61,446 nucleotides of DNA from a virus. Lineage: Duplodnaviria; Caudoviricetes. Where the stretch lies: the IMG/VR virus record IMGVR_UViG_3300011335_000402, positions 1-61,446 of that record. One strand, 5' to 3'. A program made the position numbers and the translations under genes. Below the pieces are notes generated by a model. It was not told where the DNA came from. It did not search any database and was given only the letters and a program-made list of their open reading frames with translations. This document shows positions 13,256-42,987 of the stretch, one piece after another (positions within the stretch are counted from its first letter, which is position 1; every line of letters starts with the position of its first letter).

Positions 13256-13369
13256 ATGCGCATAACCAAGGCAGAATGGTATCGACTGGGTGGCTTCGCC
13301 AACAGCGACCTCTATCGACGCGCCGACCGGTTAGGCCGGTGGATGCACTTCATAGGAGCAACGCAATGA
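13256..13369 (+). CDS. Small hypothetical protein (37 aa)
   Basis: Strong RBS AAAGGAGG; MRITKAEWYRLGGFANSDLYRR...; ATGA overlap with next gene. Confidence 0.65.
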   Translation: MRITKAEWYRLGGFANSDLYRRADRLGRWMHFIGATQ

Positions 13370-14132: not shown

Positions 14133-14168
14133 GCTTTCCCTACCCGAGTAGGGAAAAGGAGCAAACCA

Positions 14169-15090: not shown

Positions 15091-15119
15091 CATACTAGCC
15101 ATAACGAGGAGCAAACGAC

Positions 15120-16859: not shown

Positions 16860-16872
16860 CAAAGAAGGAGTA

Positions 16873-17043: not shown

Positions 17044-17045
17044 CC

Positions 17046-17074
17046 TTGACATTGTTAATATATTGTGCTACACA
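17046..17074 (+). promoter_or_regulatory. Early sigma70-like promoter
   Basis: TTGACA-17 bp-TACACA. Confidence 0.7.
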
Positions 17075-17152
17075 ATAATCGACAGCGGGGATAACCCTGC
17101 GCGCTGCCTTTCCCTACTCGGGTAGGCAAACCACAACCAAGGAGCAACCAAC

Positions 17153-18367: not shown

Positions 18368-18423
18368 TTTTAAAAAACCGTGTCATTTTCCCTACTCAGG
18401 TAGGCAAACGAAGGAGCAAGATA

Positions 18424-19014: not shown

Positions 19015-19039
19015 CATTATTATTACATTGTGCTACATA
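19011..19039 (+). promoter_or_regulatory. Early sigma70-like promoter
   Basis: TTGACA-17 bp-TACATA; similar to the 17046 promoter. Confidence 0.7.
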
Positions 19040-19118
19040 ATAATCAACGGCGGGGGTCCAACCCCGCCACAAGCCCTTCCCTACTCGGGTAGGCAAACCA
19101 CAACCAAGGAGCAATCAC

Positions 19119-20195: not shown

Positions 20196-20254
20196 CCCTC
20201 GGATGGTTTCCCTACTCAGGTAGGGAAACCGTTCACCCATCTAGGAGCAAACCA

Positions 20255-20434: not shown

Positions 20435-21282
20435 GCATTTCATCCTCGGCCATGTTGGTCGAACTCAACATCTCGGTGTGGACCGCCAACAAGGTGGACA
20501 AGGTAGCGAGCCGCAAGGTCGCCGACGACAACAACGCTGGCTGGGATGCTGGTCAGTTCCGCAAGAACCTCATGGCTGGCAGCACGATGCGCAAGCAGAT
20601 CGCTGACTACGCTGCTGGCTGTCGCCTGTGGCACAACACCCGCACCATGCCGTGGGCTGATCGCGGCCCTCGCCTTCTGCCTACGTCGCTATTCTTTGAC
20701 TACAAGACCGAGGCATCTGCGCGTCAGGACTTCTTCCTCGACCTCGTGAACCGTTTCGAGGCGGAGTATCCCGCGCTGCAAAGCACCGCCAAGAACTACC
20801 TCGGCGCGCTGTTTGACCCGGCTGACTACCCCAGTGTCGAAGAGATGCGGTCCAAGTTCGGCTTCCGTCTGGTGTTCTCACCAGTGCCGGAGGCGGGCGA
20901 CTTTCGCGTAGACCTACCGACGCAGGAGTTGGAGATAATGCGCGAACGCTACGAGCAGAACGCCAACGAGCGGGTTGCCAGCGCCATGCACGAGCAGTGG
21001 ACCAAGCTGCACGACATGGTGGAGCGTATGTCTGACAAGTTGATCGAGCCGGACGGCGACGATACCCGTCGCTGGCACGATACCTTCCTGACCAATGCGC
21101 ATGAACTATGCGCAATGCTGTCGCACCTCAACATCACCAAGGACCCCGAACTGGAGCAGGCCCGTCGCCAATTGGAGCGGGCTGTCGCTGGGGTTGAGAT
21201 CGGCGACATCAAAGAAAGTGCCGGTGTCCGCATCGACGTGAAGGACAAGCTGGACGCCATCCTCAAGCAATATAACTGGTAG
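20431..21282 (+). CDS. DUF3150-like protein
   Basis: LVELNISVW...TMPW..RGPRLLP...FDPADYP; typical neighbour of phage MoxR/VWA genes. Confidence 0.6.
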   Translation: MSISSSAMLVELNISVWTANKVDKVASRKVADDNNAGWDAGQFRKNLMAGSTMRKQIADYAAGCRLWHNTRTMPWADRGPRLLPTSLFFDYKTEASARQDFFLDLVNRFEAEYPALQSTAKNYLGALFDPADYPSVEEMRSKFGFRLVFSPVPEAGDFRVDLPTQELEIMRERYEQNANERVASAMHEQWTKLHDMVERMSDKLIEPDGDDTRRWHDTFLTNAHELCAMLSHLNITKDPELEQARRQLERAVAGVEIGDIKESAGVRIDVKDKLDAILKQYNW

Positions 21283-21293
21283 GAGCAAAGACC

Positions 21294-22359: not shown

Positions 22360-22405
22360 CAGAGTATAGTTGAGATGCAATCATCACAGCCAAGGAGCAA
22401 ACATC

Positions 22406-26529: not shown

Positions 26530-27125
26530 CCGAATACCAATTTACAAAAGACTGGTTCAGCCAAGCACCAGAGGTGTGGAAGCGGCTTACCCCCCTCCTG
26601 CCGGGTGATCCGGGTAGACGCCATTTCCTTGAGATCGGCTCTTTCGAGGGCCGCAGCGCGGTTTGGATTGCCGAGAACATGATGGTCGAGGGCGACGAGT
26701 TGCGCTGCATCGACACATGGAAGGGCGGTGAGGAGCACAGCGCCGAGGATATGGGGGCTGTCGAAGATCGGTTCCGGCACAACATTGTGCTGGCCGCTAA
26801 ACGCCTACCGAGCCGCCGCATTTTCCAGACCCCCGGTACATCTGTTCAGCGACTGGCAGAGTTTCAGGGTAAGAATGAGTTCGACTTCATCTACATCGAC
26901 GGGTCCCACATCGCCAAGGACGTGCTGACCGACGCCTGCATGGCGTGGCCGCTGCTCAAGTCCGGCGGTCTTATGGTGTTCGACGATTATCTGTGGGGTG
27001 ACCCGCGTGACGTCCTGCACCGCCCCAAGCTGGCGATTGACGCCTTTGCCAACATCTTTGCCGAGCAGTTGGATGTCATCCACGTCGGCTACCAGTTCGT
27101 AGTACGAAGGAAGGAGCAAATGTAA
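26526..27125 (+). CDS. Class I SAM-dependent methyltransferase (Methyltransf_24-like)
   Basis: LEIGSFEGRS, IDTW, FDFIYIDGSH, LKSGGLMVFDDY. Confidence 0.9.
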   Translation: MTEYQFTKDWFSQAPEVWKRLTPLLPGDPGRRHFLEIGSFEGRSAVWIAENMMVEGDELRCIDTWKGGEEHSAEDMGAVEDRFRHNIVLAAKRLPSRRIFQTPGTSVQRLAEFQGKNEFDFIYIDGSHIAKDVLTDACMAWPLLKSGGLMVFDDYLWGDPRDVLHRPKLAIDAFANIFAEQLDVIHVGYQFVVRRKEQM

Positions 27126-29443: not shown

Positions 29444-29480
29444 CGCACCGGACAAAGTAGTACGCAAGCAGGAGCAAACT

Positions 29481-31025: not shown

Positions 31026-31040
31026 GCTATGAGGTATAGA
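31012..31040 (+). promoter_or_regulatory. Sigma70-like promoter of the second replication operon
   Basis: TTGACA-17 bp-TATAGA. Confidence 0.7.
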
Positions 31041-31068
31041 GGGGTTACCACAAAACAAGGAGCAACTA

Positions 31069-31473
31069 ATGACGGAAAAAATACCCATAAACGACGTCGT
31101 CGCCGCGTACCGCAAGGTGCGCGATGCGGTGGCCGAGGCGGAAGCCGCCCACGAGAAGGAGATGGCGGCGCTCAAGGAGCAGATGGACATCCTCTCCGCA
31201 GAGCTTCTGAACTTCTGCAACGAGCAGAACCTCGACAGCGTCCGCACCCCTGCGGGGACCATCTCACGGCGCGTCCAGACCCGTTACTGGACGACCGATT
31301 GGGAGTCCATGTACCAGTTCGTTCTGGAGCATGAAGCGCCCTTCGTTTTGGAGCGGCGCATCCACAACGGCAACCTCAAGCAGTTTCTGGAGGACCACCC
31401 GGACGTCCTCCCGGTCGGCCTACAGGTCGATAACAAGTACACAATCACTGTCCGCAAACCTACCGAGAAGTGA
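31069..31473 (+). CDS. Conserved replication-module protein (coiled coil)
   Basis: SVRTPAGT...DWES...LERRI...LP.GL pattern. Confidence 0.75.
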   Translation: MTEKIPINDVVAAYRKVRDAVAEAEAAHEKEMAALKEQMDILSAELLNFCNEQNLDSVRTPAGTISRRVQTRYWTTDWESMYQFVLEHEAPFVLERRIHNGNLKQFLEDHPDVLPVGLQVDNKYTITVRKPTEK

Positions 31474-31481
31474 GTTTCCCA

Positions 31482-32429
31482 ATGAGCAACATTACCATTT
31501 TCGAAGAAGCCTCCAACGTGCCCACGGTGCGCCGTCAGTCGCGCCACATGGACAAGATGGGGAGCGGCACCACCCTGCGCCGCATCCAGACCAACACCAA
31601 CGGCACCTTCAAGCGTGTCATCGGTGGTGAGCAGATCGGTAAGGCTGTCCCGCATGAAGTCGATGTCATCATCGTCGATTGGTTGAAGGATGTGTCGCGG
31701 CAGTTCTATGCCAGCGCCTACGACCCTAATGCTAAGGCAACGCTGCCTGACTGCTGGTCGGCACTGGGTGACAAACCCGACGCCAAGGTTAAGTCTCCGC
31801 CGTCCTCTTCCTGCGCTGCCTGCCCCAACAACGTCGAGGGTTCGGGGGACAAGGGTAAGGGCAAGGCATGTCGCTACCAGCGCCGCGTGGCGGTCCTGAT
31901 CGCGGGCGACCCATCTGGTGAGGTCTACCAGATGAACTTCGCGGCTACGACGCTGTTCGGTAAGGGCGTTGGTAACGTCCATCCGTTCGAGAGCTACAAG
32001 AACTTCCTGCGCTCCAGCGGTGAGGGTCTCGACACTGTCGTCACTCGCGTGATGTACGATCTCGAAGCCGACACCATGAAGTTGAAGTTCAAGCCGATTC
32101 GTCACCTCACCGAGGTCGAAGCCGGACTGGTGGACGCCGCACAGGACAACCCGGAGACCCAGCGGTATATCCAGTTGACGGTTGCCGAGGTCGATGGCGC
32201 AACGCACACAGCGAACCCGGTAGCTACCACGCCGAAGGTCATTGAAGCCCCGGCCAAGCCCGCTGGTAACCCGTTCGCGGACGATGACGAAGACGAGGAC
32301 GACGCTCCGGCGGAACCGGTCAAGCGCGCCAGTAAGAAGAGCAACACTGCGGTCGCTCCGTCCACTGAGGCGAAGCCGGGACTCCAGTCAGTTCTCAATA
32401 ACTGGCTCGACGAAGACGACGAAGGTTAA
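31482..32429 (+). CDS. Putative ssDNA-binding/annealing protein
   Basis: Cys cluster (PDCWS, CAACP, KAC), acidic flexible tail ending WLDEDDEG; replication context. Confidence 0.6.
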   Translation: MSNITIFEEASNVPTVRRQSRHMDKMGSGTTLRRIQTNTNGTFKRVIGGEQIGKAVPHEVDVIIVDWLKDVSRQFYASAYDPNAKATLPDCWSALGDKPDAKVKSPPSSSCAACPNNVEGSGDKGKGKACRYQRRVAVLIAGDPSGEVYQMNFAATTLFGKGVGNVHPFESYKNFLRSSGEGLDTVVTRVMYDLEADTMKLKFKPIRHLTEVEAGLVDAAQDNPETQRYIQLTVAEVDGATHTANPVATTPKVIEAPAKPAGNPFADDDEDEDDAPAEPVKRASKKSNTAVAPSTEAKPGLQSVLNNWLDEDDEG

Positions 32430-32431
32430 TC

Positions 32432-32659
32432 ATGCACGGTTATAGCCTCCGTATGGCCAAGGGGATTGAGCAGGCGGACGAGCGCCTGCTTGGGGTGCAA
32501 CTCGGGCGAGTCTGTCTCGCCCGAGACATCCCTGTAGCCGAGGTCGCCCGACATTTTGGGGTAAGCCGACAAGCTGTTTACAACTGGTTCCTCGGGGAGA
32601 GCAGCCCGAGGGAGAGCCTAGGCCCGCAGATACGCGAGTATATGGTTCAACTGGGTTGA
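32432..32659 (+). CDS. HTH DNA-binding protein
   Basis: VAEVARHFGVSRQAVYNWFLG. Confidence 0.85.
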   Translation: MHGYSLRMAKGIEQADERLLGVQLGRVCLARDIPVAEVARHFGVSRQAVYNWFLGESSPRESLGPQIREYMVQLG

Positions 32660-32700
32660 GCCTCCAGCAAAGGTAAACGATAAGCGGGGGTTTCCCCGCA

Positions 32701-35586
32701 ATGGTGAGTGATGCAATGCAGCAACCCGACCTCCTAAGCCTTGTGCAACCAGACGATGGCTGGTTCGCAATCACAGGCATCAAGGGGTCCGGGAAGGACG
32801 CGAACGTGCGACAGGCACTTGTGGCTACCCGCGAAGAGGCAGACGACCTCATCGCGCAGTATGCCGCTGCCGAGCGCAACGTATTTTTTGGGGTGGCCAA
32901 ATACTCTACAGGTGCCAACCGCACGAAGGAGAACGTGAAGGCGCTCAAAGCCTTCTGGCTCGACATCGACTGCGGCCCCGGCAAATCCGCGATCAACCCG
33001 GACACTAAACGTCCTGACGGCTATCCAGATCAGGCCGCTGGTCTCTCCGCCCTCCGCGACTTCTGTAGCGCGGTCGGGCTTCCAACACCTACGCTGGTAA
33101 GTTCCGGTGGAGGTATCCATGCTTACTGGCCTCTGACCGAGGCCGTGTCGCGCCGCGAGTGGGAGACCGTCGCCGAACGCCTCAAAGAGGTGTGCCGGTC
33201 GTTGGACTTCTTCGTGGACGACAAGGTATTCGAGGTGGCGCGCATTCTGCGTGTGCCCGGAACCTTCAACTATAAGGGTGATACACCGCGCCCCGTGGAG
33301 CTACTCCACGTCGGCAAACCCATACCAGTGCAGGAGGTACGCTCGATCTTGGGGGTCAAAGCCCAGCCCGAGCAGAGCATCTTCGATGATGGCTACCAAG
33401 TGTCACCCCGCCAGCAGGCGCTCCTTGGGGGTATCGGCTACAGCTTCAAGCGCATCATGCGGCGTACGCTCAATGGGGACGGGTGCAACCAGATCATGCA
33501 CGCCTACACCAACCGGGCGACCCTCAGCTACTACGAGTGGTTCTTTGCCTTCTCGGTAGCTGCCATGTGCGAAGACGCGGATAAGGCGGTACATATCCTC
33601 TCGGAGGGGCACCCCGACTACGACCCGGATACGATCACTAGGAAGGCAGCCACGGTCAAAAAATCGACTAGCTGCGCCAAGTTCAAAGGCAACAATGCGG
33701 CCCTGTGTGAAGGGTGCCCGCATTTTGGTAAAATCCTCGGCCCGAAAGAGTTGGGCAAAGAGGTGCGTGAGGGCAGTAATGAGCGTACACTAATACCCGA
33801 TACTTCTGCCCCTAACGAAGCAGGTGTAGAGGAACCCCCTACTACGGTTGTGATACCCAAGTTCCCCTTCCCATTTTACCGGGGTGAGGGCGGCGGTATC
33901 TGGCGTAGGCCACCCAAGGACGAGCCAGAGGCGGACCCCATCTGGGTGTATGAGCACGACCTTTATGTCGTGAAGCGAATGAACGACACCACCGATGGTG
34001 ACGTGGTGCTCTTCCGGCTGCACCTGCCCTGTGACCCCATGAAGGAGTTCACAGTGCCCTTATATAAGGTCACCCAGAAGGACGAGTTGCGCAAGGCGCT
34101 CGCCGCGCAGGGGGTAATTAGCGCCGGAAAGAAGTTCGAACTCCTCATGGATTTCGTTCTGGCATCCACGAAAGAAATCCAATTCCACGAAAAGGCAGAG
34201 ATCATGAGACAACAATTTGGATGGGTGGACGGCAACAGCCGGTTCGTCCTCGGAGATCAGGAAATCACCGTCAGCGGTAACGTCTACTCTCCTCCCTCTA
34301 AGGCCACGAGTAAGCTGGCCAAATTCATCGGGCCGGTCGGCTCGTTCGAGGAGTGGAAGAACGTCTGGTCGCTGTTCGGTGCCGAAGGGATGGAAGGTCA
34401 GGCATTCGCCGCCTTGAGCGCGTTCGGTTCGCCCCTGCTCAAATTCCTCAACCAGACCGGTGCGGTCATCAACCTGTTCAACTCCCGGTCCGGGACCGGT
34501 AAGACCACCATCCTCAACATGGTGAACAGCGTCTATGGCCACCCGAAGGAACTGCGGCTCAAGGAGATCGACACCATCAACGGTAAGCTCCAGTGGGTCG
34601 GCGTCCTCAACAACCTGCCCGCCACCATGGACGAACTGACCAACGCGACCCCCAAGGACTACTCCGACTTCCTCTACTCCCTGTCCAACGGGAAGGGGAA
34701 AGAGCGCATGATGGCCGGGTCCAACGAGTTGCGCGAGAACAACACCACATGGCAGAATATCACGGTATCCACGTCGAACTCATCGTTCGTCGAGAAGCTG
34801 TCAGTGTTGAAGAACAACCCAGAAGGCGAGTTGATGCGCCTGATCGAGTACCCCATCGGGCTGGTCGATTCGATCAACACCGCTGAGGCCAAGAACCTCT
34901 TCGACACCGTGCTGTTCAGCAACTATGGCCATGCAGGCCCCATCTTCCTACGCTACATCATCGCCAATATGGAGCAGGTGCTGCTCAAGGTGCGTGCGAT
35001 GCAGGCCAAGATCGACCGGGAGCTTCAACTCCTCCCCAAGGAGCGTTTCTGGTCATCGACCGTCGCGAGCAACATCGTCGGCGGCTTGATCGCCAAGCAG
35101 TGCGGCCTGATCGACTGGGATATGGACCGCATCTATAACTGGGCCTGCGGGTTGGTCGAGCGGCTGCGGCAGGACACGACCGCGCCGCTGGACGATGTGG
35201 AGCAGGTCGTCGGCGACTACCTCTATCGGCATGTCCAGAACATCCTCGTGGTTGACGACTTGGCGGACCGGCGCACCAACATGCCTGCCCTGCCGAAGCG
35301 CGAACCAAAGGGTGAGTTGCTCATCCGCATCGAGCCGGACACGCGGATGATGTTCATGATCGCCAAGCCGTTCAAGGAGTACTGCGTTAAGTACCAGATC
35401 AACTACGGCGAGACCCTGCGCAAGCTGGAGGAGACGGGGCGACTCGTGGGTCGCGGTGGCAAGCGTATATCCAAGGGGATGGCGGTCTCTGGCGACAATA
35501 TCCACTGCCTCTGGTTCAAGCTGACGGACGATTTCGTCAACACCGACGATTATGTGAAACCAGAAGAAACTGCCGATGGTGATTGA
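32701..35586 (+). CDS. Primase-helicase (RepB-type primase, DUF927, P-loop helicase)
   Basis: WLDID, SGGGIHAYW, RILRVPGTFN, Cys cluster, QFGW, SGTGKTT, MDE. Confidence 0.88.
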   Translation: MVSDAMQQPDLLSLVQPDDGWFAITGIKGSGKDANVRQALVATREEADDLIAQYAAAERNVFFGVAKYSTGANRTKENVKALKAFWLDIDCGPGKSAINPDTKRPDGYPDQAAGLSALRDFCSAVGLPTPTLVSSGGGIHAYWPLTEAVSRREWETVAERLKEVCRSLDFFVDDKVFEVARILRVPGTFNYKGDTPRPVELLHVGKPIPVQEVRSILGVKAQPEQSIFDDGYQVSPRQQALLGGIGYSFKRIMRRTLNGDGCNQIMHAYTNRATLSYYEWFFAFSVAAMCEDADKAVHILSEGHPDYDPDTITRKAATVKKSTSCAKFKGNNAALCEGCPHFGKILGPKELGKEVREGSNERTLIPDTSAPNEAGVEEPPTTVVIPKFPFPFYRGEGGGIWRRPPKDEPEADPIWVYEHDLYVVKRMNDTTDGDVVLFRLHLPCDPMKEFTVPLYKVTQKDELRKALAAQGVISAGKKFELLMDFVLASTKEIQFHEKAEIMRQQFGWVDGNSRFVLGDQEITVSGNVYSPPSKATSKLAKFIGPVGSFEEWKNVWSLFGAEGMEGQAFAALSAFGSPLLKFLNQTGAVINLFNSRSGTGKTTILNMVNSVYGHPKELRLKEIDTINGKLQWVGVLNNLPATMDELTNATPKDYSDFLYSLSNGKGKERMMAGSNELRENNTTWQNITVSTSNSSFVEKLSVLKNNPEGELMRLIEYPIGLVDSINTAEAKNLFDTVLFSNYGHAGPIFLRYIIANMEQVLLKVRAMQAKIDRELQLLPKERFWSSTVASNIVGGLIAKQCGLIDWDMDRIYNWACGLVERLRQDTTAPLDDVEQVVGDYLYRHVQNILVVDDLADRRTNMPALPKREPKGELLIRIEPDTRMMFMIAKPFKEYCVKYQINYGETLRKLEETGRLVGRGGKRISKGMAVSGDNIHCLWFKLTDDFVNTDDYVKPEETADGD

Positions 35587-35770
35587 GGGCGTCACCTATG
35601 AGGTGAACTGGCGTGCCTTCCGAAAAGGCACGTCGCTCTTCTTCCCCTGCCTCGACTACCCCCGCGCCCGAGCACAACTGGTTGTGGTCACCAAGCGGCT
35701 AAGACTCAAGGTGTTGGTCAAGCCCACCATCGAACAGGGGATTAGGGGTTTACGCGTTTGGCGAATGTGA
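35576..35770 (+). CDS. Small hypothetical protein
   Basis: GTSLFFPC...GLRVWR; last plus-strand gene. Confidence 0.7.
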   Translation: MVIEGVTYEVNWRAFRKGTSLFFPCLDYPRARAQLVVVTKRLRLKVLVKPTIEQGIRGLRVWRM

Positions 35771-35777
35771 GTATAGG
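35749..35777 (+). promoter_or_regulatory. Putative promoter for the candidate sRNA
   Basis: TTTACG-17 bp-TATAGG with no downstream ORF before the terminator. Confidence 0.55.
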
Positions 35778-35783
35778 GGACCC

Positions 35784-35856
35784 CGGAAGTTTGCTCCTTC
35801 CTTGTGGTAATCACTCCCATAACCCCCCAGTCGGACCCGTCCGGCTGGGGGTTTTT
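35784..35856 (+). ncRNA. Candidate anti-RBS small RNA
   Basis: Hairpin GGAAG-TTTGCTC-CTTCC; GTTTGCTCCTTCCTTGTGGTAA is complementary to the leaders of many plus-strand genes. Confidence 0.6.
35821..35856 (+). terminator. Rho-independent terminator at the convergence of the two transcription blocks
   Basis: CCCCCAGTCGGA...TCCGGCTGGGGG-TTTTT. Confidence 0.85.
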
Positions 35857-38800
35857 CTATTCCTGCGCCTCTTCGCGCAGTCGCTCCTGTACCAACGGCA
35901 TCCGCACCGGGATGCGCTCGTTGATCCCCATACCGCCCGACCGCTCTGCGGCTTCCCGAGCCTTCTCTTGGAAGGACCGCTGCATGGTGTCAGCGGTGAT
36001 GGCGTTCGAGGGGTAGTTGAGGTTGTAGATTTGGATGCTACGGTCGATGTCCGTGAGGGCAGCGAAGTTCTCCTCGCTTGGGTCTCGCGTAATATCCAGA
36101 ACCGCACGATACCGCTTGTTGAGCAGATCGGTCCGCTCGGCGGCAACCTCTCGCTCAATATCCCCAGCGGCAATCGAGAGTTGCATATCGCGTGACGACT
36201 CTGCCTCGGCGAAGCCCAGTGACTGCATCATCGAGGTGTACGTGTCATAGAACTCCGGCTCACGCAGCACGATGTCGCGGTCCTTGCCGATGACCAGACC
36301 CTCCTCTTGGAGCCGCTCCGACTTGAGGTAATTGCGGATCACTGCGGGCATAGCAGTTTCGATGGCGAGACGAGGGTTACCGGCGTTGGCTTCCTTGATG
36401 GTCTTTATCGCGGCGCTCGCCAGCGCACTGGTGGGGCCGAGGAACGTCCGGGATATGAACTCATAGAACTGCACCTCCGGGTCATCCGACTTGACGTCCA
36501 CCGGATGCCATAGGGAGTTGAGCGAGACCGAGTTAGAGATGTCGACGCCGAACACTCCGGGTATGCCAATATCCGCAGCCGTCGCCAGCATCTCTGCTGA
36601 CTCATCGGAGAGACCCAGCGCGGTAGCCATCGTGCCGTCCGGACCGAACGTCTCGGGAATCCACGTGGTGCGGATGTAGTACTCCATGTCCTTTTTGCCG
36701 AGTTTGTTCTTGAGCAACTCACGCTCGATGATCTCGGGGGTCAGTTCCTCTTCCTCGTCGTCTCCGATGCTCATGGCCCACTGGAGGATACCATAGGCCC
36801 CCATGGCCAGCGCATACAGCCAAGAGCCTCGGATACCTGCGTAGAGTGTCGTCATGGCGGCGACACCGAAGAAGACCCGAGCCGCAGCGGCTTTGCCTTC
36901 CTTGTTGAAGAACGGGAGCATGTTGACGAAGCTGCGCACCAGCAGCGACGTCATAGAGAAGCTGTAGGAGCGCATGGCCAGCGGGAGACGACCCAACTGC
37001 GACTTGGCGTAGCGCGACTTGTTCCAGTTGGAGAAGTCGAACATACCGGCGTTGGTCAGTTCGGCTGCTTTGCGCATGGCGATGTCGGCGGCGTTCTCCG
37101 AGGTAACACCCTTCTTCTTCAACTCGCGGTCGTAGGCCAGTTCGAACGCCGACATGAACATCACTTCACGCCCGACGCGCTCCATCCCATGGAACATAGC
37201 CCCCATGGCTTCCATGGTGTTGGCTGTGGCGCGCTGCGTTGCCGAGATCATATCCCCGCGCCGCACCGACTGGGTGAAGCTGTAGGTTTCGGTAGGCGTG
37301 TTGCTCCGGTCGTAGAGGTCCGCTGATGCAGCGAAGGTGCTCTGGGTGACGTCGTGCTCGTGGGCGAAGGTCCACGCCCTCTGGAGTGCCTTATACCGCT
37401 TCTGGTCAGCCTCTTTCTTGGACTCTTTCAGCGCCAGCATGTTGGCGTTGTTTTCCAGTGTGACCCTTGGCATCTGGATCGTCACGTTGCCTTCATCATC
37501 GCGAAACGGGTTGGCGATGCGCGAACCAGTCAGCATCCCGGTCGTGTACTTGGTAGCCATGGCATAGGTCGCCACTTCGCCAAACTCTGCCGACAGGGTC
37601 GGTAGGCCGACAATATGAAGCTGGGTCAGGTTGATGATCGCCGACTTGGGTGCCGACAATAGGTACAAGAAGGTGCCCTTGGCACCAAGGGCCAGCAGCT
37701 TCTCCACGGTGTTTTCCGGGTCGGGCGACATGGTCCCTTCGATACGCATCTCCAGTTCGCGGGTGATGGTGTCGAGGCGCACCTTGGACGGATTGTCCTC
37801 AGTCTCCTTGTAGGACTGGTCAATGAGGTTCTGGAACTTGTGGTTGAACGCCAGACGCCCAAGCTGGTTAGCCGCCGCCACCGAGGTGGTGGCGAAGGTG
37901 CGCAGTGTGTCGGTGCTGAAACCGGCCTTGAACTGGCGGTGCAGGAACCGCCGCCGCATGTCGGCTTCTGGTAGCGCGGTCAGGTACATCTGGAAGATGT
38001 GGTCCTTGAGGGTATTCACGTCGGTGCTAGCACCGCCCTCGTCGACCATATCGAGCAGCTTCTTGAGCGCCGTGCTGGCGTCCTTGTTGGCGACACTACC
38101 ACGTAGTGCGTTGGTCCCGAAACCGGGGGTGACTTTGCGGGTTTCCTTCTCCGCCCTTAGTCGGTCCATGAACGCCTTCTGGGCCGACTGCGACTCGAAC
38201 ATATGGAACTCACCCTCTGGGCCTTTGCCGACAGAGACCCAGTATTCACCATACCGCTTGAGCGGGAAGTAGATGATGCGCTTACGTGCTTCGGCGAACA
38301 TCTCTTCGACCGCGCCCTTGAGGCGCGTAGCGTCCTCTTCCTCGAAGTCGCCATCGTCGATGCGCTCCATGAGCAGTCGGTAGTGCTCGTCGAAGTCGGC
38401 GCGGTAGTGGTCTCGCACCTCACGGAAAAGCTGCTTACCCGTACCCGAACCGAGCGCCTTTTGCGACAGGTCATTCCAACCATAGACCTTGTCCCCACTC
38501 TTGGGGTCAGTGCCGCCGTTGTAGACGCGCTTGATGTTATTCTTCCGCTCGGTGATCGACCCCCTGAGAGTTTTCTGCTTCTTGGGGTCAGTGGTGTTCG
38601 CCAGCTTGGCTTCGAGGTCTTTCAGCTTCGGGTCGATAGCTATGTAGGCCGTGGCGTTGTCCGCCAGTGTCGGGTCTACGTCCATCATTGTCGCCGAGAA
38701 CATGATGTCCCCGAGTGCGCGCCCACCCTCCTCGGAGCGCGAGGTGAAGTCCGCCCAACGCTCGGCGGTCTTGGTCGCCCGCATCATCAGCCTATTGATG

Positions 38801-41800
38801 TAGGGCAAATACTCGTCGCGCATCATCGCATCAATCCGCGCCGGGTTCTTCATCCCGGCGGCGGTGCCAAGGCGCACGACATCCTCCGTCATCATCGGCC
38901 CGAGCATCTTCTGGAACGCCCCCGGCGCGATGCTATTGTAAAGGCTCGTGAGGATGCCAACGTCCGCATTGGGCCTACGCGCCATCAGCGACAGCTTCCC
39001 GGCGAGACTCAAGGTCTCTTCACCCTTACGGCTCCGCAGGATGCGCTTCTGCATGTTGTTGATCTTCATCCGGCGGATGCCAGCGGCTTCCTCCAGACGC
39101 CTGATCTGCCCCTTGGTCAGCTTACGTGAGACAGCGGCAGCTACCGTTTGGGTAGTGATTGGCTGCGTACCGCCTGTGTCATCCGGGAGGTCCCGGAACG
39201 TACCGGTTTTGGCCGACAGCATCTTGCCGGTCATCTCACCGCTCTCTGCGTTCAGGACTGCGTTCAGCCCCTTGATGATCGCCGAGTTGTTGGTGAAGCC
39301 GAAGGCGTCCTTGATGGCCTCGATGAACCCTTCGAGCCAGTTGCGCGCTTCGCCTACCCAGCCAGTGCGCTTGGCGCGCTTACCTACCAGTTCCGTGGCG
39401 TTGACCGCCCAGAACTCAGACGGGTTGGACAGGTGGTAGACCGAGTAGGGGATGTCGCCCATTGCGAACGACTCTTGGAGCCGCTTCCGCGCCGTCGGGT
39501 CACCATAGTATGCTGATACGATGGTAGCCAGAACCTCACGCATGGGGACGTTACCAGTCGCGTCAGCCATGGCGCGAAGGTCCTTGATGCGCTTTGCCCA
39601 CGCGGCCCGGATACCATCGCGCACCTTTTCAGGCATCATGCGCTCGGTGTGGTGCAGCACCTCATGGGTAGCCGTGCCAGTTTTGGCCTTCTGGGTGAAG
39701 ATGGTGGCAAGCCGACTGAACGGGTCATACTGACCCGAGGGGCTACTCATATTCCCCCCGCGCAGCGAGAACGCCAGATCGTCGGCGATGGCAGGGTTCT
39801 TCTGCAACAGCCACCGAACCATCTCGGCGCTCTCACGCGACAGTTGCATGTTGCGTTCGGCTTTGTAGGTGACCTCCATGGCGCGCTCAAACCCACGCAC
39901 TCGGGGGCGGCTACGCGCTTCACGTTGGGCTTCGGTGCGCGCGAGCAGCCGCTCGCGCAGTTCCCGCAAATCTTCTAGCAGCGTCTCAATGTCTTCGGCG
40001 CGCTGGTACCGCTCCATGGCGCGGCGCAATTCAACCTCGGCGTAGAGCCGCTGCTGCTCGGGAAGCTGCTCCATGAACGCATAGATACTGGCGCTGCTTG
40101 GCGTTTCGACTAGCCTCAGTGCCTCGACATCAGTGCCTCCGCCTTCGCCAATATCGAACAGCACTCCCTGATCGGGGTCTGCCTTCTTGGCACGCGTCCG
40201 CTTAGGCTTCGGTGCGGGTGCTTCGGTAGCCACAGGTGCATAATTCTGATGTTCAGCCAGCAGGGTGTCGGGGCTGAACGGCCCTGCGACTTTTTCTCCC
40301 CCATTCATATACTGAACTTCGACCGGAAGAGAGGTGACGCCCTCCTCCGCCGCTACCGCTACACGGTTGTTCCCTTCCGCGATGAAGGCTTCACCATTGT
40401 GGTTGACCCATACCATGGGCAGACCCGCCTTTTCGCGGTCGAACCCACCTTCATCGACAGATTTCCGCAATGCGTCGTATTTGGGTTCCCCCGGTGCAGG
40501 CTGCTCGTTGTTGATGCCTTCAAGGCTCCGCAGTTTCTCAACCGGGATTTCCACGCGGCGGACGGTCTGCGTTGCTGGGCCATTCAGCATACGCGCTGCC
40601 GACCCAGTGGTTTCGCCCTCGGCCAATGCCTCGGCCCGCCCTCGTTCAGCTTTCTGTTGCTGGCGGGCTTCCCATTCACCGCCGGGGTTGTCCTCAAAGA
40701 CTTCCGGCGTGACCTTCTCGACCGTAGCCGTCTCGGCGACCGTGGCCGGGGCTTCCTCCATCGGGGGCGCGACGAGTTCCTGCGAGACCTGCTGGTCGCG
40801 CGCGGCAAGTTCTTCTTCCACTGCTGTGGTAGGCGCAGGCTGGACGCCTGATACTTCTGCCAGCACCGCGAGCGGGTCTACGTCTCCACCACGCGCAACG
40901 GTCTGCGCGATCCGGGTAGCCGCTGCGGTGTACTGCTTCGGGAGCAGTCCTTGAAACTGCGGGTTCTCCATGGTGACGTCGGATACAAGCTGCATGGCGG
41001 CAGCTTTGCGTTCCTTCATGTTCGCCGCTTCACGGATAGGCGTCAGTGGATCGAACTGTGCTCCTTCTCGAACAGGAGAAACTGGAGCGCCAGAAACAGG
41101 CTCTGCCACTGGTCGTCCGTCAAGCCGCTCAACGCTGGGGAGAGCAGCCCCGGATAATACGGCTCCTCCATCAGGAGAAACGCCTGCGAGACCTCCTCCG
41201 GGTGTAGGTCCGGCAAGTCCTGCATCATCTGGGCGAAGTCCCGTCGCACCTGCTCCAGCGCCTGCTTCCCGTCCGACATCTCCGACTCCTCGCGCTGCAC
41301 GCACCTGTGCCTTGGCCTGCTCCAGCAAATCTCCGCTGCGCTCAACCACCATGTTGACGGCGGTATCCTGTTGGAGGTCCGGGTCCGCATCCATCAGCGC
41401 GTTGACCTCAGCCCTCGCCAGATCACGGAAGGTCTGGACGACCTCAGGGTCGTTGTTGGGGATGTCTTCTACTTCGCCCCGGCTGCGGTCGCGTTGGCGC
41501 ATGGCAGTGACGACGTTGCGTTCGGCCAGTGCCTCTCGCGCTGTGGCTGTGCGGGCCAACCGCTCCGCGATAGCATCTTCGTCGAGGTTGGGGTTGGCGG
41601 CTCTGAGCGCATTCCCCTCTTCCTCATACAGCCGGAAGCGTTCTTCACTGACCGCTCGGATAAGCGCCGGGTCATCCCGGACGAACTGCTGCACCGCCTC
41701 AGCTACGCCACGAACGCCACCACCGACGATACCGCCAACCAGCGCGCTGCGCCCGACGCCTTCCATGATCTCTTGGTTGGGGTCATAAATCTGCTGGGCG

Positions 41801-42987
41801 AGCAGGTTCTGCCCTGCCTGCACTACGGCTTCCTGTCCGGCTTCTTCCGCACCAGTCAGCGCGATACGCCCAAGTGCGCGGGACTCGATATTGGTGACCG
41901 CCCGCTCGATGGCTTCCAATGCGGCACGCGGGGCAACTTGGCCGACTGTGGCCCGGTCAACGACGTCAAACACCGCGTCGATTGCCTGCTGTCGAGCGGT
42001 GACAGGCACGCGCTCGATCATACGGTTGATTACACCTACTTCGGTCAGGCCAAGGCCCGCACCACCGAGACGCGCCAAGAACTCCTGCCCGGACGTGACC
42101 TCGCCGCCTTCTTCGCGGAACTGTTGGATGTCCTGCCCCATCTCGGAGGAACCAGCAGCGGCAGCGGCTGGGTACTGCGCCCGACCCAATGCCTGTGCGG
42201 TGCGCGCTGCACCTAGACCACTAGCGAGCCGCCCTGCACCACGCAGCGCGAGTTGCTCTGTCAGGCTACCTACACCCGCACCGACGTCCCCAGCGAGAGC
42301 CGCGATTGGCGAGTAGCGCGCAGCCTCACTGGTTTCGCCGAACCAACGACGACCACGTTCTTGTCCTGAGGCTTCGGTCTCGGCCCCATATTCTGAGATT
42401 GCGCCACCAATATCTTCGGCACCGACCGTGGACAGCCCCGAACCAAGTAGCCCTGCTGCACCCCCTATAAGGCGGTTGGGTGCTTCAACAACACTGCGCC
42501 CCAGCATGGTAGCAAAGTCGGAAATCGCACTGCCGACTGTGGCCGATGGCGGGGGAGCGCCAGTCTGGTCGATATAGTCTATACGTGCGCGGAGTCGGCC
42601 AATTGAAGTCCGGGCGTTCTCGATCATATCCGGGATAGCGCCAAGCTCTTCTGGCGAACCTGCGTCCGTGCGGAGCCGCTCTTGGAGTTGGGCGATCTGC
42701 CGTTCTGTACGGCGAATAGAGGCGAGCGTCTCAGCGCGATCAGTCCGGGCCTCGGCAGTCAACGTACCTGCGCGTGCAGGAGTCGGTGCAGGAGTAGGAG
42801 TGGCTACTGGGGCAGGAGTAGCAGCCGTAGGCTGGGCCACAGGCGCAGTGGGTGCAGAGGGAGGGACATTAAGGCGCGCAGCGATGCGCCTGCGCAGTTC
42901 TGCTTCCACCTGCGCTTTGGGTACGTCAGCCCCGGCATCCATCTGATACACACGACCATCGGGGCCTGTCATCGTGTAAGTCGTCAT
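35857..42987 (-). CDS. Large polyvalent internal virion/ejection protein
   Basis: 2376 aa at the end of the late operon; Gly/Ala hydrophobic segments, ParB/Srx-like IAEGNNR motif, THEVLHH zincin motif. Confidence 0.75.
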   Translation of the reverse strand: MTTYTMTGPDGRVYQMDAGADVPKAQVEAELRRRIAARLNVPPSAPTAPVAQPTAATPAPVATPTPAPTPARAGTLTAEARTDRAETLASIRRTERQIAQLQERLRTDAGSPEELGAIPDMIENARTSIGRLRARIDYIDQTGAPPPSATVGSAISDFATMLGRSVVEAPNRLIGGAAGLLGSGLSTVGAEDIGGAISEYGAETEASGQERGRRWFGETSEAARYSPIAALAGDVGAGVGSLTEQLALRGAGRLASGLGAARTAQALGRAQYPAAAAAGSSEMGQDIQQFREEGGEVTSGQEFLARLGGAGLGLTEVGVINRMIERVPVTARQQAIDAVFDVVDRATVGQVAPRAALEAIERAVTNIESRALGRIALTGAEEAGQEAVVQAGQNLLAQQIYDPNQEIMEGVGRSALVGGIVGGGVRGVAEAVQQFVRDDPALIRAVSEERFRLYEEEGNALRAANPNLDEDAIAERLARTATAREALAERNVVTAMRQRDRSRGEVEDIPNNDPEVVQTFRDLARAEVNALMDADPDLQQDTAVNMVVERSGDLLEQAKAQVRAARGVGDVGREAGAGAGATGLRPDDAGLAGPTPGGGLAGVSPDGGAVLSGAALPSVERLDGRPVAEPVSGAPVSPVREGAQFDPLTPIREAANMKERKAAAMQLVSDVTMENPQFQGLLPKQYTAAATRIAQTVARGGDVDPLAVLAEVSGVQPAPTTAVEEELAARDQQVSQELVAPPMEEAPATVAETATVEKVTPEVFEDNPGGEWEARQQQKAERGRAEALAEGETTGSAARMLNGPATQTVRRVEIPVEKLRSLEGINNEQPAPGEPKYDALRKSVDEGGFDREKAGLPMVWVNHNGEAFIAEGNNRVAVAAEEGVTSLPVEVQYMNGGEKVAGPFSPDTLLAEHQNYAPVATEAPAPKPKRTRAKKADPDQGVLFDIGEGGGTDVEALRLVETPSSASIYAFMEQLPEQQRLYAEVELRRAMERYQRAEDIETLLEDLRELRERLLARTEAQREARSRPRVRGFERAMEVTYKAERNMQLSRESAEMVRWLLQKNPAIADDLAFSLRGGNMSSPSGQYDPFSRLATIFTQKAKTGTATHEVLHHTERMMPEKVRDGIRAAWAKRIKDLRAMADATGNVPMREVLATIVSAYYGDPTARKRLQESFAMGDIPYSVYHLSNPSEFWAVNATELVGKRAKRTGWVGEARNWLEGFIEAIKDAFGFTNNSAIIKGLNAVLNAESGEMTGKMLSAKTGTFRDLPDDTGGTQPITTQTVAAAVSRKLTKGQIRRLEEAAGIRRMKINNMQKRILRSRKGEETLSLAGKLSLMARRPNADVGILTSLYNSIAPGAFQKMLGPMMTEDVVRLGTAAGMKNPARIDAMMRDEYLPYINRLMMRATKTAERWADFTSRSEEGGRALGDIMFSATMMDVDPTLADNATAYIAIDPKLKDLEAKLANTTDPKKQKTLRGSITERKNNIKRVYNGGTDPKSGDKVYGWNDLSQKALGSGTGKQLFREVRDHYRADFDEHYRLLMERIDDGDFEEEDATRLKGAVEEMFAEARKRIIYFPLKRYGEYWVSVGKGPEGEFHMFESQSAQKAFMDRLRAEKETRKVTPGFGTNALRGSVANKDASTALKKLLDMVDEGGASTDVNTLKDHIFQMYLTALPEADMRRRFLHRQFKAGFSTDTLRTFATTSVAAANQLGRLAFNHKFQNLIDQSYKETEDNPSKVRLDTITRELEMRIEGTMSPDPENTVEKLLALGAKGTFLYLLSAPKSAIINLTQLHIVGLPTLSAEFGEVATYAMATKYTTGMLTGSRIANPFRDDEGNVTIQMPRVTLENNANMLALKESKKEADQKRYKALQRAWTFAHEHDVTQSTFAASADLYDRSNTPTETYSFTQSVRRGDMISATQRATANTMEAMGAMFHGMERVGREVMFMSAFELAYDRELKKKGVTSENAADIAMRKAAELTNAGMFDFSNWNKSRYAKSQLGRLPLAMRSYSFSMTSLLVRSFVNMLPFFNKEGKAAAARVFFGVAAMTTLYAGIRGSWLYALAMGAYGILQWAMSIGDDEEEELTPEIIERELLKNKLGKKDMEYYIRTTWIPETFGPDGTMATALGLSDESAEMLATAADIGIPGVFGVDISNSVSLNSLWHPVDVKSDDPEVQFYEFISRTFLGPTSALASAAIKTIKEANAGNPRLAIETAMPAVIRNYLKSERLQEEGLVIGKDRDIVLREPEFYDTYTSMMQSLGFAEAESSRDMQLSIAAGDIEREVAAERTDLLNKRYRAVLDITRDPSEENFAALTDIDRSIQIYNLNYPSNAITADTMQRSFQEKAREAAERSGGMGINERIPVRMPLVQERLREEAQE

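What the first reader, a model, noticed from the sequence alone, without database searches (positions are those of the whole stretch)
35749..35856. Candidate phage sRNA antisense to a ribosome-binding motif shared by ~14 early/replication genes
Seen: the non-coding gap after the last plus-strand gene has a promoter-like TTTACG-17-TATAGG, a hairpin GGAAG-[TTTGCTC]-CTTCC, then TTGTGGTAA and an intrinsic terminator (~70 nt). Its reverse complement TTACCACAAGGAAGGAGCAAACT matches plus-strand leaders: 17130 and 19097 (ACCACAA-cc-AAGGAGCAA, 16/18), 31045 (TTACCACAA-aac-AAGGAGCAA, 9+9), 27107 (14 nt perfect), 14156, 22392 and 29470 (11 nt), 15107, 18410 and 20243 (10 nt), and 13354, 13773, 21281, 28304 (7-9 nt). 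The late minus-strand RBSs I inspected lack the GCAA extension. Inference: one trans-acting RNA with a loop-displayed seed occludes the Shine-Dalgarno of the early/replication regulon, giving an RNA-based early-to-late (or dormancy) switch in a phage without an obvious cI repressor.
Basis: partly seen in the sequence, partly recalled or inferred. Interest (0 to 1): 0.92.

Follow-up and report, generated by a model that had tools for sequence, protein, structure and literature searches.

The report
Conserved phage small RNA complementary to early ribosome-binding sites
A short gene-like element at the end of this freshwater phage's early genes, conserved in dozens of related uncultured phages, looks like a ~70-nt regulatory RNA whose hairpin loop is the exact complement of a ribosome-binding tag carried only by the phage's early genes, which suggests an RNA that turns early protein synthesis down.

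Summary
Positions 35749-35856 contain a -35/-10-like pair, a 17-nt hairpin (35785-35801), a linker and a one-directional intrinsic terminator. AGGAGCAA precedes 10 of 34 early starts and 0 of 39 late starts, while core Shine-Dalgarno strength does not differ.

The same module lies behind a conserved 64-aa ORF in at least 71 distinct IMG/VR contexts. Hairpin stems covary, but UGCUCCU, the complement of AGGAGCA, is kept.

In one clade the loop changed U to C, and several early RBSs read AGGAGCGA. That form is absent from 239 early starts in loci with the canonical loop. A second complementary block also recurs: sRNA linker UGGUUG against leader CAACCA.

Best reading: a trans-acting phage sRNA that pairs with the RBSs of its own early regulon. 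This is inferred, not shown. There are no expression data, the covariation rests on one clade, and two other seed variants show no compensation.

No Rfam family matched, and the four paper searches found no description of it. I class it as a new variant of a known kind.

The parts
35576..35770 (+). Conserved 64-aa ORF whose last codons (..G-L-R-V-W-R-M) carry the -35-like box. It always precedes the element.
   Evidence: ORF list. 80 distinct homologues were read from related loci. In the 40-sequence alignment W12, P24, C25, L59, R60 and W62 are invariant. AF2 pLDDT is 93.9. There is no Pfam or PHROG hit and no PDB fold match with E below 0.33.
35749..35754 (+). -35-like hexamer TTTACG, formed by the Leu codon TTA plus CG of the Arg codon.
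   Evidence: In contexts selected only by the 17-mer, this Leu codon is TTA in 58, TTG in 12 and CTT in 1 of 71. TTA makes up only 9 of 1475 Leu codons in the window's genes.
35772..35777 (+). -10-like hexamer TATAGG, 17 nt after the -35-like box and 7 nt before the hairpin.
   Evidence: Across 91 distinct family elements, the best hexamer at spacer 16-18 has T1 in 89, A2 in 89 and T3 in 72. The spacer is 16 or 17 nt in 90, and the hexamer lies 14-15 nt before GCTCC in 74. The tool's scan did not call this site.
35785..35801 (+). 5' hairpin GGAAG-UUUGCUC-CUUCC. The seed UUGCUCCU at 35791-35798 is the complement of AGGAGCAA.
   Evidence: The 17-mer is identical in 12 of 12 primase-defined relatives that have downstream sequence and in 71 distinct family contexts. 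Stem covariation is shown.
35802..35823 (+). Linker UUGUGGUAAUCACUCCCAUAAC. UUGUGGU is complementary to ACCACAA in three leaders.
   Evidence: Family-wide, the top linker 4-mers are GGTT, TGGT and GTTG, while the top 4-mers upstream of GGAGC[AG]-type Shine-Dalgarno sites are AACC, ACCA, CAAC and CCAA.
35824..35856 (+). Intrinsic terminator: a 12-bp stem with 9 G-C pairs and a 4-nt loop, then UUUUU.
   Evidence: 68 of 71 family contexts have a T-run downstream. Only 1 of 71 is A-rich on the other side of the stem, so termination is one-directional.
13354..13361 (+). AGGAGCAA RBS, followed by ATG at 13366.
14157..14164 (+). AGGAGCAA RBS of the gene starting at 14169.
15107..15114 (+). AGGAGCAA RBS of the gene starting at 15120.
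17130..17147 (+). ACCACAAccAAGGAGCAA leader of the 404-aa gene starting at 17153.
18412..18419 (+). AGGAGCAA RBS, followed by ATG at 18424.
19097..19114 (+). ACCACAAccAAGGAGCAA leader of the ATPase gene starting at 19119.
20243..20250 (+). AGGAGCAA RBS of the gene starting at 20255.
21281..21288 (+). AGGAGCAA RBS of the gene starting at 21294.
22393..22400 (+). AGGAGCAA RBS of the gene starting at 22406 (resolvase-like).
27105..27118 (+). Longest perfect match to the sRNA (14 nt), in front of the gene starting at 27125.
29470..29477 (+). AGGAGCAA RBS of the helicase gene (GTG at 29481).
31045..31065 (+). TTACCACAAaacAAGGAGCAA leader of the gene starting at 31069.
35857..42987 (-). Convergent 2376-aa late gene. 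Its stop codon abuts the T-run, and its own strand has no U-tract after the stem.

Best explanation
Positions 35749-35856 encode a small non-coding RNA of about 70 nt that defines a family in a group of ~60-kb freshwater phages.

Proposed transcription unit (inferred):
- It is probably transcribed by the host RNA polymerase from a promoter whose -35 box lies in the last codons of a conserved 64-aa ORF and whose -10 box follows the stop codon.
- The transcript would start at or just before a 5-bp/7-nt hairpin and end at a one-directional intrinsic terminator.

Proposed action (inferred):
- The hairpin presents UUGCUCCU in its loop and the first two pairs of its 3' arm.
- This pairs with AGGAGCAA, a Shine-Dalgarno sequence plus a CAA extension carried only by early and replication genes.
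- A G/U-rich linker often adds a second contact with a C/A-rich stretch upstream of the Shine-Dalgarno sequence.
- Pairing would cover the ribosome-binding site and lower translation of the early regulon as the RNA accumulates.

Shown here by computation: the anatomy, the conservation, the stem covariation, the restriction of the tag to early genes, the selective complementarity, and one natural compensatory change.

Inferred and untested: transcription, the direction of the effect (repression), its timing, and any need for a chaperone.
For: 1. Tag restricted to early genes
- AGGAGCAA occurs 12 times on the + strand, all before early starts, and on the - strand only at 3151 and in the candidate.
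- It precedes 10 of 34 early and 0 of 39 late TIRs (Fisher 2e-4). AGGAG (14/34 vs 10/39), GGAG (17/34 vs 17/39) and anti-SD duplex energy (-7.30 vs -7.37) do not differ.
- In 55 distinct relatives there are 66 copies on the early strand upstream against 2 on the opposite strand, and 6 and 5 downstream.
- Two distant phages that lack the element (Rollin, RHph_TM3_14A) show no enrichment: 1 and 3 copies in the whole genome.

2. Conservation
- The 17-mer is identical in 12 of 12 relatives chosen by primase similarity (72-75% aa identity), while its flanks vary.
- Among 84 distinct contexts chosen by the 17-mer alone, 71 have the same ORF end and 68 of those have a T-run. The median length is 70 nt.

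3. RNA structure
- A scan keyed on the ORF end found variant stems: GGTAG/CTACC, GACAG/CTGTC, GAGAG/CTCTC, GCAAG/CTTGC, GGAAAG/CTTTCC and GGGG/CCCC. GCTCC stays invariant and TG before it nearly invariant.
- 4 of 5 stem pairs show changes on both sides, in 16 cells. 0 of 500 shuffles reach that cell count.

4. Promoter
- A TAT at a fixed distance is conserved in otherwise variable non-coding sequence.
- The Leu codon in the -35 box is the rare TTA or TTG in 70 of 71 contexts.

5. Seed-target covariation
- In the clade with loop AAUCGCUC, early TIRs read AGGAGCGA. Complete genome G001 has 3 CGA and 1 CAA, and G002 has 3 CGA and 3 CAA.
- The window has 11 CAA and 0 CGA. Across 67 canonical loci, GGAGCAA occurs 93 times and GGAGCGA 0 times in 239 TIRs.
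- The orthologous gene starting ATGACCGA has CAA in canonical phages and CGA in the variant clade.

6. Second pairing block: the linker and leader 4-mer sets are mutual complements. The C/A-rich 4-mers occur in 64 of 134 tagged leaders, 29 of 135 other early leaders and 9 of 60 late leaders.

7. Energetics that include intramolecular structure
- Cofold ddG of -8 kcal/mol or better is reached by 20 of 35 early and 1 of 39 late TIRs.
- 0 of 149 shuffles reach this early-minus-late contrast; their maximum is 13.
Against: - No expression data exist for this phage or its relatives.
- The window's own -10 box (TATAGG) is weak, and the tool's promoter scan did not call it.
- The -35 box lies in conserved coding sequence, and the 91/91 TTTACG count is conditioned by the scan pattern.
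- Covariation rests on one clade, so on one or a few events. In that clade 1-3 tagged TIRs per genome keep CAA.
- One other contig with C at the same loop position (L220) has no AGGAGCGA in 5.3 kb.
- In the contig with loop AUGCUC (G008) the tags stay AGGAGCAA (7), with only 1 AGGAGCAT. Pairing at the 8th position is therefore not maintained.
- Part of the seed lies in the stem, which must open (-3.7 kcal/mol).
- Shuffled, unstructured versions of the 5' part give about as many strong early duplexes (mean 14.6). Only the early/late selectivity is exceptional.
- Major early genes, including the DNA polymerase (23815) and the primase (32701), lack the tag.
- The linker-class test is marginal (p = 0.048, with no correction for relatedness).
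- The host is unknown, so host targets cannot be excluded.
Confidence: 0.55

Rival explanations
1. The RNA is real, but its main targets are host mRNAs. One version is a general dampening of host translation through its anti-Shine-Dalgarno core. Another is a specific host gene. On this view the match to phage early RBSs is secondary.
For: - The CUCCU core would pair with any strong Shine-Dalgarno sequence (with CTCCT fixed, shuffles average 1.7 early hits).
- Described phage sRNAs often act on host genes (passages of the review PMC12197685; abstract of bioRxiv 10.1101/2024.10.31.621285 in the listing).
- The host is unknown, so this could not be tested.
Against: - The conserved part extends beyond the Shine-Dalgarno core into exactly the extension that marks phage early genes and is absent from late genes.
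- The extension changes together with the loop in one clade.
Confidence: 0.13
2. The functional strand or molecule is the other one. The hairpin read on the minus strand (GGAAG-GAGCAAA-CUUCC) would be a mimic of the early RBS tag. It would be carried on read-through late transcripts and would titrate whatever factor recognises the tag, for example a phage protein, ribosomal protein S1 or a nuclease.
For: - The late operon has no U-tract on its own strand after the stem. Only 1 of 71 contexts is A-rich on the plus-strand side upstream of the stem, so read-through is plausible.
- A mimic would covary with the tag just as an antisense RNA would.
- T4 offers a precedent for an early-mRNA tag read by proteins: GGA plus an A-rich 11-nt site recognised by RegB with S1 (abstract of PMC1702504).
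Against: - The promoter-like boxes and the T-run are oriented for the plus strand, at fixed distances.
- No RegB homologue was found.
- The complementary linker/leader block fits antisense pairing and does not fit mimicry.
Confidence: 0.12
3. It is a 3'-end element of the early operon mRNA with no trans-acting role, serving for example in stability, processing or termination. The complementarity would then be a relic of an inverted duplication of a leader cassette.
For: - The element lies in the 3' UTR of the last early gene, before the operon terminator.
- Early leaders are modular repeated cassettes that could be copied (families D5, D8, D10).
Against: - A relic would not keep 17 nt invariant while its flanks diverge.
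- It would not keep the loop while the stem covaries.
- It would not change its loop together with the RBSs.
- A strong terminator is already present.
Confidence: 0.1
4. It is a DNA-level site, such as a protein operator, an origin or a nick site, formed by the inverted repeat GGAAG-N7-CTTCC next to the replication genes.
For: - It is an inverted repeat at the junction of the replication and late modules, next to the primase gene.
Against: - The spacer is more conserved than the arms, and the arms covary to keep pairing rather than sequence.
- The motif in the leaders sits at a fixed 3-5 nt from start codons, which points to action at the RNA or translation level.
Confidence: 0.05

Closest known systems
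c4 antisense RNA of phages P1/P7 (and, recalled, the CI RNA of P4)
   Same: It is a phage-encoded small RNA. Its complementary sequences are displayed in loops and pair around a ribosome-binding site to block translation (passages of review PMC12197685).
   Different: c4 controls one operon (antirepressor) for immunity in temperate phages. As I recall, it is processed from the same transcript as its target. Here the predicted targets are 12 or more separate early TIRs that share a tag, the RNA has its own promoter-like boxes, and there is no Rfam match to any family.
T4 RegB endoribonuclease with S1, and the T4 RegA translational repressor
   Same: Both shut off early mRNAs specifically, keyed on the Shine-Dalgarno GGAG plus an A-rich extension. 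The RegB/S1 site is 11 nt, with GGA followed by an A-rich consensus (abstract of PMC1702504). The RegA role is recalled and was seen only in the listing of PMC3014915.
   Different: Those effectors are proteins. No RegB homologue is present in the window. Here the reader of the tag would be an RNA.
Bacterial multi-target anti-Shine-Dalgarno sRNAs
   Same: A C/U-rich motif in a hairpin loop pairs with the Shine-Dalgarno regions of several mRNAs.
   Different: Those are host-encoded, use different motifs and regulate metabolic regulons. This one is phage-encoded, is aimed at the phage's own early genes, and has no Rfam match.
oop RNA of phage lambda (recalled)
   Same: A short (~77-nt) phage RNA with its own promoter and an intrinsic terminator, located beside the replication genes.
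   Different: oop is cis-antisense to one gene (cII). This element overlaps no gene and matches many distant sites.

Membership tests
Any curated Rfam family (including phage antisense RNAs and anti-SD sRNAs) | Covariance-model score at or above the family's gathering threshold | tested here: not met
   There were 0 matches in the whole window at gathering thresholds. The best sub-threshold match in 35650-35900 is NsiR1, at 24.1 bits against a threshold of 39, and it covers mainly the terminator.
Trans-encoded base-pairing sRNA that occludes ribosome-binding sites | Independent transcription unit: a promoter and a Rho-independent terminator bounding a short non-coding stretch | tested here: inconclusive
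   The terminator is clear. The -35/-10-like boxes are conserved at fixed spacing. However, the window's -10 box is weak, the scan did not call it, and no transcript data exist.
Trans-encoded base-pairing sRNA that occludes ribosome-binding sites | Conserved, accessible seed | tested here: met
   GCTCC is invariant and the flanking T/G are nearly invariant in 81 sequences. The seed lies in the loop and the first stem pairs.
Trans-encoded base-pairing sRNA that occludes ribosome-binding sites | Complementarity to target TIRs beyond chance, and selective | tested here: met
   At least 8 contiguous complementary bases occur in 12 of 34 early and 1 of 39 late TIRs, and 0 of 2000 shuffles match this. 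Cofold ddG gives 20 of 35 against 1 of 39, and 0 of 149 shuffles reach that contrast.
Trans-encoded base-pairing sRNA that occludes ribosome-binding sites | Compensatory change between seed and targets | tested here: inconclusive
   One clade is positive. One contig is negative (L220). There is no compensation at the 8th position. The metagenome scan added no new variant clade.
Trans-encoded base-pairing sRNA that occludes ribosome-binding sites | Expression, and a regulatory effect on target translation | not testable with these tools
   This needs a northern blot, RACE or small-RNA sequencing, plus reporter assays.
P1/P7 c4-type immunity RNA | Encoded in and processed from the operon it controls, with a single antirepressor target and an immunity function in a temperate phage | tested here: not met
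   The element lies downstream of the last early gene, not upstream of a single target. It matches 12 dispersed TIRs. It has no Rfam C4 match. The defining features themselves are recalled, supported by the review passages.
T4 RegB-type early mRNA inactivation | RegB endoribonuclease gene present | tested here: not met
   A six-frame search of the window with PF10715 gave no match at E of 1 or better.

The most novel reading that the evidence does not exclude
A whole family of freshwater phages marks its early and replication mRNAs with a private extension of the Shine-Dalgarno sequence (AGGAGCAA). They encode one small RNA that reads this address and shuts the tagged regulon down. This would be an RNA counterpart of T4 RegA/RegB, with tag and reader co-evolving, as in the clade where the loop changed U to C and the tags changed A to G. 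Temporal control of translation would then rest on a single ~70-nt RNA rather than on a protein.
Probability: 0.4. Interest if true: 0.85.

Novelty: new variant of a known kind. Interest (0 to 1): 0.72.

Why it matters
Phage small RNAs that regulate the phage's own program are known mainly as single-target antisense RNAs of temperate phages. A conserved RNA predicted to address a dozen early genes through a shared ribosome-binding tag would do three things:
- It would add an RNA-based route to early shut-off.
- It would explain why early and late genes of these phages use different ribosome-binding sites.
- It would give a compact, portable tag-and-reader pair that can be tested directly with reporter fusions and compensatory mutations. 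Nature appears to have made one such mutation already.

It also defines an RNA family for annotating uncultured phage genomes.

Tried and rejected
- RNA evidence: the look-up of sequencing runs on 31000-40900 listed no RNA holder.
- blastn of 35000-37000 against isolated phages found no match.
- Distant isolates found through the primase (Pseudomonas phage Rollin, Rhizobium phage RHph_TM3_14A) lack the element downstream of their primase.
- The 17-mer in prokaryote genomes gave 48 hits. By my own arithmetic about 70 are expected by chance in 596 Gb. Only one hit (L277, a short contig binned in a MAG) has the family architecture, so there is no sign of a host-derived sRNA and no usable host assignment.
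- A minus-strand ORF through the hairpin was rejected, because the reading frame differs between relatives with different linker lengths (reading).
- tRNA or anticodon-loop mimic: ARAGORN found nothing.
- A RegB-like nuclease was not found.
- The 64-aa ORF as an RNA chaperone: the fold is confident, but no PDB match has E below 0.33, so there is no verdict.
Four hits passed my filter, and the two that belong to the family were both from the variant clade already known.
- The absolute number of strong cofold duplexes is not exceptional against unstructured shuffles. Only the early/late contrast is.
- My simple gene caller mis-set two early starts (13366 and 18424). They were added by hand. In one search one of them was offset by 1 nt, which was corrected.
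- A covariance model of the full RNA was considered but not built.
- Supplementary Table S1 of PMC12197685, which lists 38 phage sRNAs of unknown function, could not be seen and may bear on novelty.
Full report
**Setting.** The window is a nearly complete (98%) virus record of 61,446 bp with about 60% G+C. Genes on the plus strand run from about 10.8 to 35.77 kb. They include an ATPase, a DNA polymerase, a helicase and a 961-aa primase. Minus-strand genes fill the rest, and a 2376-aa gene ends at 35857. The finding lies in the 86-nt convergent gap between the last plus-strand ORF (35576-35770, 64 aa) and that giant gene.

**The observation.**
- TTTACG is at 35749-35754, then a 17-nt spacer, then TATAGG at 35772-35777.
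- The hairpin GGAAG-TTTGCTC-CTTCC is at 35785-35801, followed by TTGTGGTAA.
- A 12-bp G+C-rich stem at 35824-35851 is followed by five T.
- The stop codon of the 64-aa ORF lies between the two hexamers.
- The tool's promoter scan did not list the site, because its rule requires a T at the last position of the second hexamer.
- Folded as RNA, 35784-35856 gives the 5' hairpin, a weak middle hairpin and the terminator: -33.6 kcal/mol, z = -4.1, mostly from the terminator.

**The tag on early genes.**
- AGGAGCAA occurs 12 times on the plus strand. All copies lie between 13354 and 31058, and all are followed within 3-5 nt by a start codon. On the minus strand it occurs only at 3151 and in the candidate itself.
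- With my own rough gene calls, the tag precedes 10 of 34 early and 0 of 39 late starts (Fisher 2e-4).
- The core motifs do not differ: AGGAG 14/34 vs 10/39, GGAG 17/34 vs 17/39. The duplex energy with a generic anti-Shine-Dalgarno motif does not differ either: -7.30 vs -7.37.
- Two further tagged starts (13366 and 18424) had been mis-set by my caller.
- The early leaders are modular. A sigma-70-like promoter occurs in 5 copies, a 22-bp palindrome in 11 copies, and the tag follows.

**More than chance.**
- At least 8 contiguous complementary bases to the first 20 nt of the candidate are found in 12 of 34 early and 1 of 39 late TIRs.
- None of 2000 free shuffles reaches 12. With CTCCT kept in place, 13 of 2000 do.
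- With intramolecular structure included (cofold), ddG of -8 kcal/mol or better is reached by 20 of 35 early and 1 of 39 late TIRs. The medians are -9.4 and -3.3.
- Shuffling the 5' part gives about as many strong early duplexes (mean 14.6) but also many late ones (mean 11.6).
- The observed early-minus-late contrast of 19 was reached by 0 of 149 shuffles (mean 2.6, maximum 13). What is unusual is the selectivity, not the raw affinity.

**Relatives.**
- A primase-based search found 19 IMG/VR loci with 67-75% amino-acid identity. Of 15 I printed, 3 were cut short. The other 12 all carry the identical 17-mer, while the sequence on both sides varies.
- Among the resulting 84 distinct contexts with full flanks, 71 have the same ORF end (G-L-R-x-W) upstream. 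Of those, 68 have a T-run downstream, and the median length from hairpin to T-run is 70 nt.
- Only 1 of the 71 is A-rich on the other side of the terminator stem, so the terminator serves the plus strand only.
- The other 13 contexts are unrelated, mostly coding sequence of an A+T-rich phage group.
- In prokaryote genomes the 17-mer occurs at about the chance level. Only one short contig there has the family architecture.

**Promoter.**
- In 91 distinct family elements the best hexamer 16-18 nt after TTTACG has T in 89, A in 89 and T in 72 at its first three positions. It lies 14-15 nt before GCTCC in 74, which puts a start site at about the first base of the hairpin.
- Many relatives have TATACT or TATAAT-like boxes. 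The window's TATAGG is among the weaker ones.
- The TTTACG count in that set is conditioned by the scan pattern. In the set chosen only by the 17-mer, the Leu codon inside the box is TTA in 58, TTG in 12 and CTT in 1 of 71. TTA is 9 of 1475 Leu codons in the window. This indicates a constraint at the nucleotide level.

**Structure.**
- A scan keyed on the ORF end rather than on the hairpin returned variants.
- The stems change in a compensating way: GGTAG/CTACC, GACAG/CTGTC, GAGAG/CTCTC, GCAAG/CTTGC, GGAAAG/CTTTCC and GGGG/CCCC.
- GCTCC is invariant and the two bases before it are nearly invariant in 81 sequences.
- On that ungapped alignment, 4 of 5 pairs show changes on both sides, in 16 cells, which 0 of 500 shuffles reach. 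The covariation score is 0.211 against 0.129. This holds even though rows with 6- or 8-nt loops are out of register and count as unpaired.
- What is conserved is therefore UGCUCCU, and mostly UUGCUCCU, which is the complement of AGGAGCA(A). The rest of the stem is kept only as a stem.

**The tag in relatives.**
- In 55 distinct loci, AGGAGCAA occurs 66 times on the early strand upstream of the element and 2 times on the opposite strand. It occurs 6 and 5 times downstream.
- CAA is the commonest triplet after AGGAG on the early strand (66 of 442). It is not among the top eight on the late strand.
- In 67 canonical loci, 93 of 239 early TIRs read GGAGCAA.
- Rollin and RHph_TM3_14A, which lack the element, have 1 and 3 copies in the whole genome.

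**Seed-target covariation.**
- One clade (L204, L229, L230, L233-L235, L237, L241) has the loop AAUCGCUC or GGUCGCUC, that is, C where the canonical loop has its last U.
- The predicted tag, AGGAGCGA, is found there in front of several different genes. The complete genome G001 has 3 CGA and 1 CAA, and G002 has 3 CGA and 3 CAA.
- Canonical loci have 0 GGAGCGA among 239 TIRs, and the window has 11 CAA and 0 CGA.
- The gene beginning ATGACCGA has CAA in canonical phages (L145, L179, L181, L215) and CGA throughout the variant clade.
- Results against: L220, which also has C at this position, has no CGA in 5.3 kb. G008, with loop AUGCUC, keeps 7 AGGAGCAA and has 1 AGGAGCAT and 2 AGGAGCAG. The CUGCUC loci give one match and otherwise none.
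- A metagenome scan added no new variant clade.
- The covariation is therefore real but rests on one lineage.

**A second pairing block.**
- Across the family, however, the commonest linker 4-mers are GGTT, TGGT and GTTG. The commonest 4-mers in the 17 nt upstream of tagged Shine-Dalgarno sites are AACC, ACCA, CAAC and CCAA, their complements.
- Such C/A-rich 4-mers occur in 64 of 134 tagged leaders, 29 of 135 other early leaders and 9 of 60 late leaders.
- Loci whose linker has TGGT or GGTT have ACCA or AACC in 35 of 83 tagged leaders, against 21 of 78 in the others (p = 0.048, uncorrected for relatedness). Matches of linkers to their own leaders are only slightly better than to leaders of other loci: 4.56 vs 4.08.

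**Interpretation.**
- The anatomy is that of a small RNA gene. The conserved part is exactly the complement of a tag that only early genes carry.
- The most economical mechanism is the canonical one. The loop nucleates pairing with GAGCAA(A), the helix extends over the Shine-Dalgarno sequence as the 5-bp stem opens (-3.7 kcal/mol; the 11-mer duplex is -15.7), and ribosome binding is blocked.
- Because the promoter-like boxes resemble the phage's early promoters, the RNA would accumulate from the start of infection and with genome copy number, giving delayed shut-off of the tagged genes. These steps are inferred.
- The late operon probably reads through the element on the other strand, which could remove the RNA late or form a rival functional molecule.
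- The rival readings are host targets, a minus-strand mimic, a passive 3' element and a DNA site. They are weighed in the Rival explanations section.

**Known relatives of the idea.**
- No Rfam family matches.
- The motif strings occur in no relevant paper of the library (32 papers, of which the 15 listed are all unrelated eukaryotic work). Two concept searches and one on RegA turned up no description of such an RNA.
- I read passages of the review PMC12197685 and the abstract of PMC1702504. The rest were seen as search listings only.
- The closest known systems are the c4 RNA of P1/P7, the protein pair RegA/RegB of T4 (no RegB gene here) and bacterial anti-Shine-Dalgarno sRNAs (recalled).

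**Verdict.** It is a new variant of a known kind, with high interest for a purely computational case. It is limited by the lack of expression data, by the unknown host and by covariation that comes from a single clade.

Noticed in passing
window 10628-22345: There are eleven or more copies of the 22-bp palindrome TTTCCCTACTCGGGTAGGGAAA. Most lie between a promoter and the tagged RBS of early genes, and the central 4-mer occurs in both orientations.
   Followed up: partly
window 10736, 13704, 17045, 19010, 31011: Five promoter-like sites share CTTGACATTGT, then about 12 nt, then GCTATACA or a close variant (TTGACA, 17-nt spacer, TAtAcA). The -10 of the site at 31011 (GTATAG) equals that of the candidate sRNA promoter.
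   Followed up: partly
window 17045-17150 and 19010-19117: A duplicated expression cassette (promoter, palindrome, ACCACAAccAAGGAGCAA) lies in front of the 404-aa and 358-aa genes. The two copies are 86-87% identical over about 100 nt.
   Followed up: no
window 16221-16858: Three adjacent small ORFs are built from 6-, 12- and 18-nt repeats that encode Gly/Asp/Tyr-rich sequence.
   Followed up: no
window 12161-12363: Four copies of a 26-29-nt self-complementary repeat (TCCACTGA..TCAGTGGA) lie next to the lone reverse-strand ORF at 11799-12161, which has no PHROG hit.
   Followed up: no
window 35857-42987 (-): The 2376-aa protein has a C-terminal region that matches the PHROG 'DarB-like antirestriction' (E 1e-47). 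Its N-terminal region has a weak hit to virion RNA polymerase (E 5e-4).
   Followed up: no
window 35576-35770 (+): The 64-aa ORF belongs to a well-conserved small-protein family, with W12, P24, C25, L59, R60 and W62 invariant in 40 sequences. The predicted alpha/beta fold is confident (pLDDT 93.9). There is no Pfam or PHROG hit and no significant PDB match. It always sits directly upstream of the sRNA.
   Followed up: partly
window 31069-31473 (+): The family assignments conflict. Pfam gives Mu Gam-like just under its cut-off (28.0 against 28.3 bits), while PHROGs gives 'minor head protein' (E 2e-19).
   Followed up: no
L020, L037, L041, L082, L084, L090, L095, L097, L127, L135, L138: The same 17-mer occurs inside a conserved coding region of an unrelated A+T-rich phage group, with no terminator and no ORF-end motif. 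It is not part of the family.
   Followed up: partly
L277 (genome contigs): An 8.3-kb contig binned in an Actinomycetota MAG carries the complete ORF-end, hairpin and terminator module. It is probably a phage contig in the bin, and I did not use it as host evidence.
   Followed up: no
L164, L169, L172, L180, L184, L199, L150: More divergent relatives with the same ORF end have longer or different RNAs. They carry extra 5' hairpins and CU-rich stretches such as CTCCTTGGAAG or CCTTTCCTCCTG. These may be sister sRNA types.
   Followed up: no
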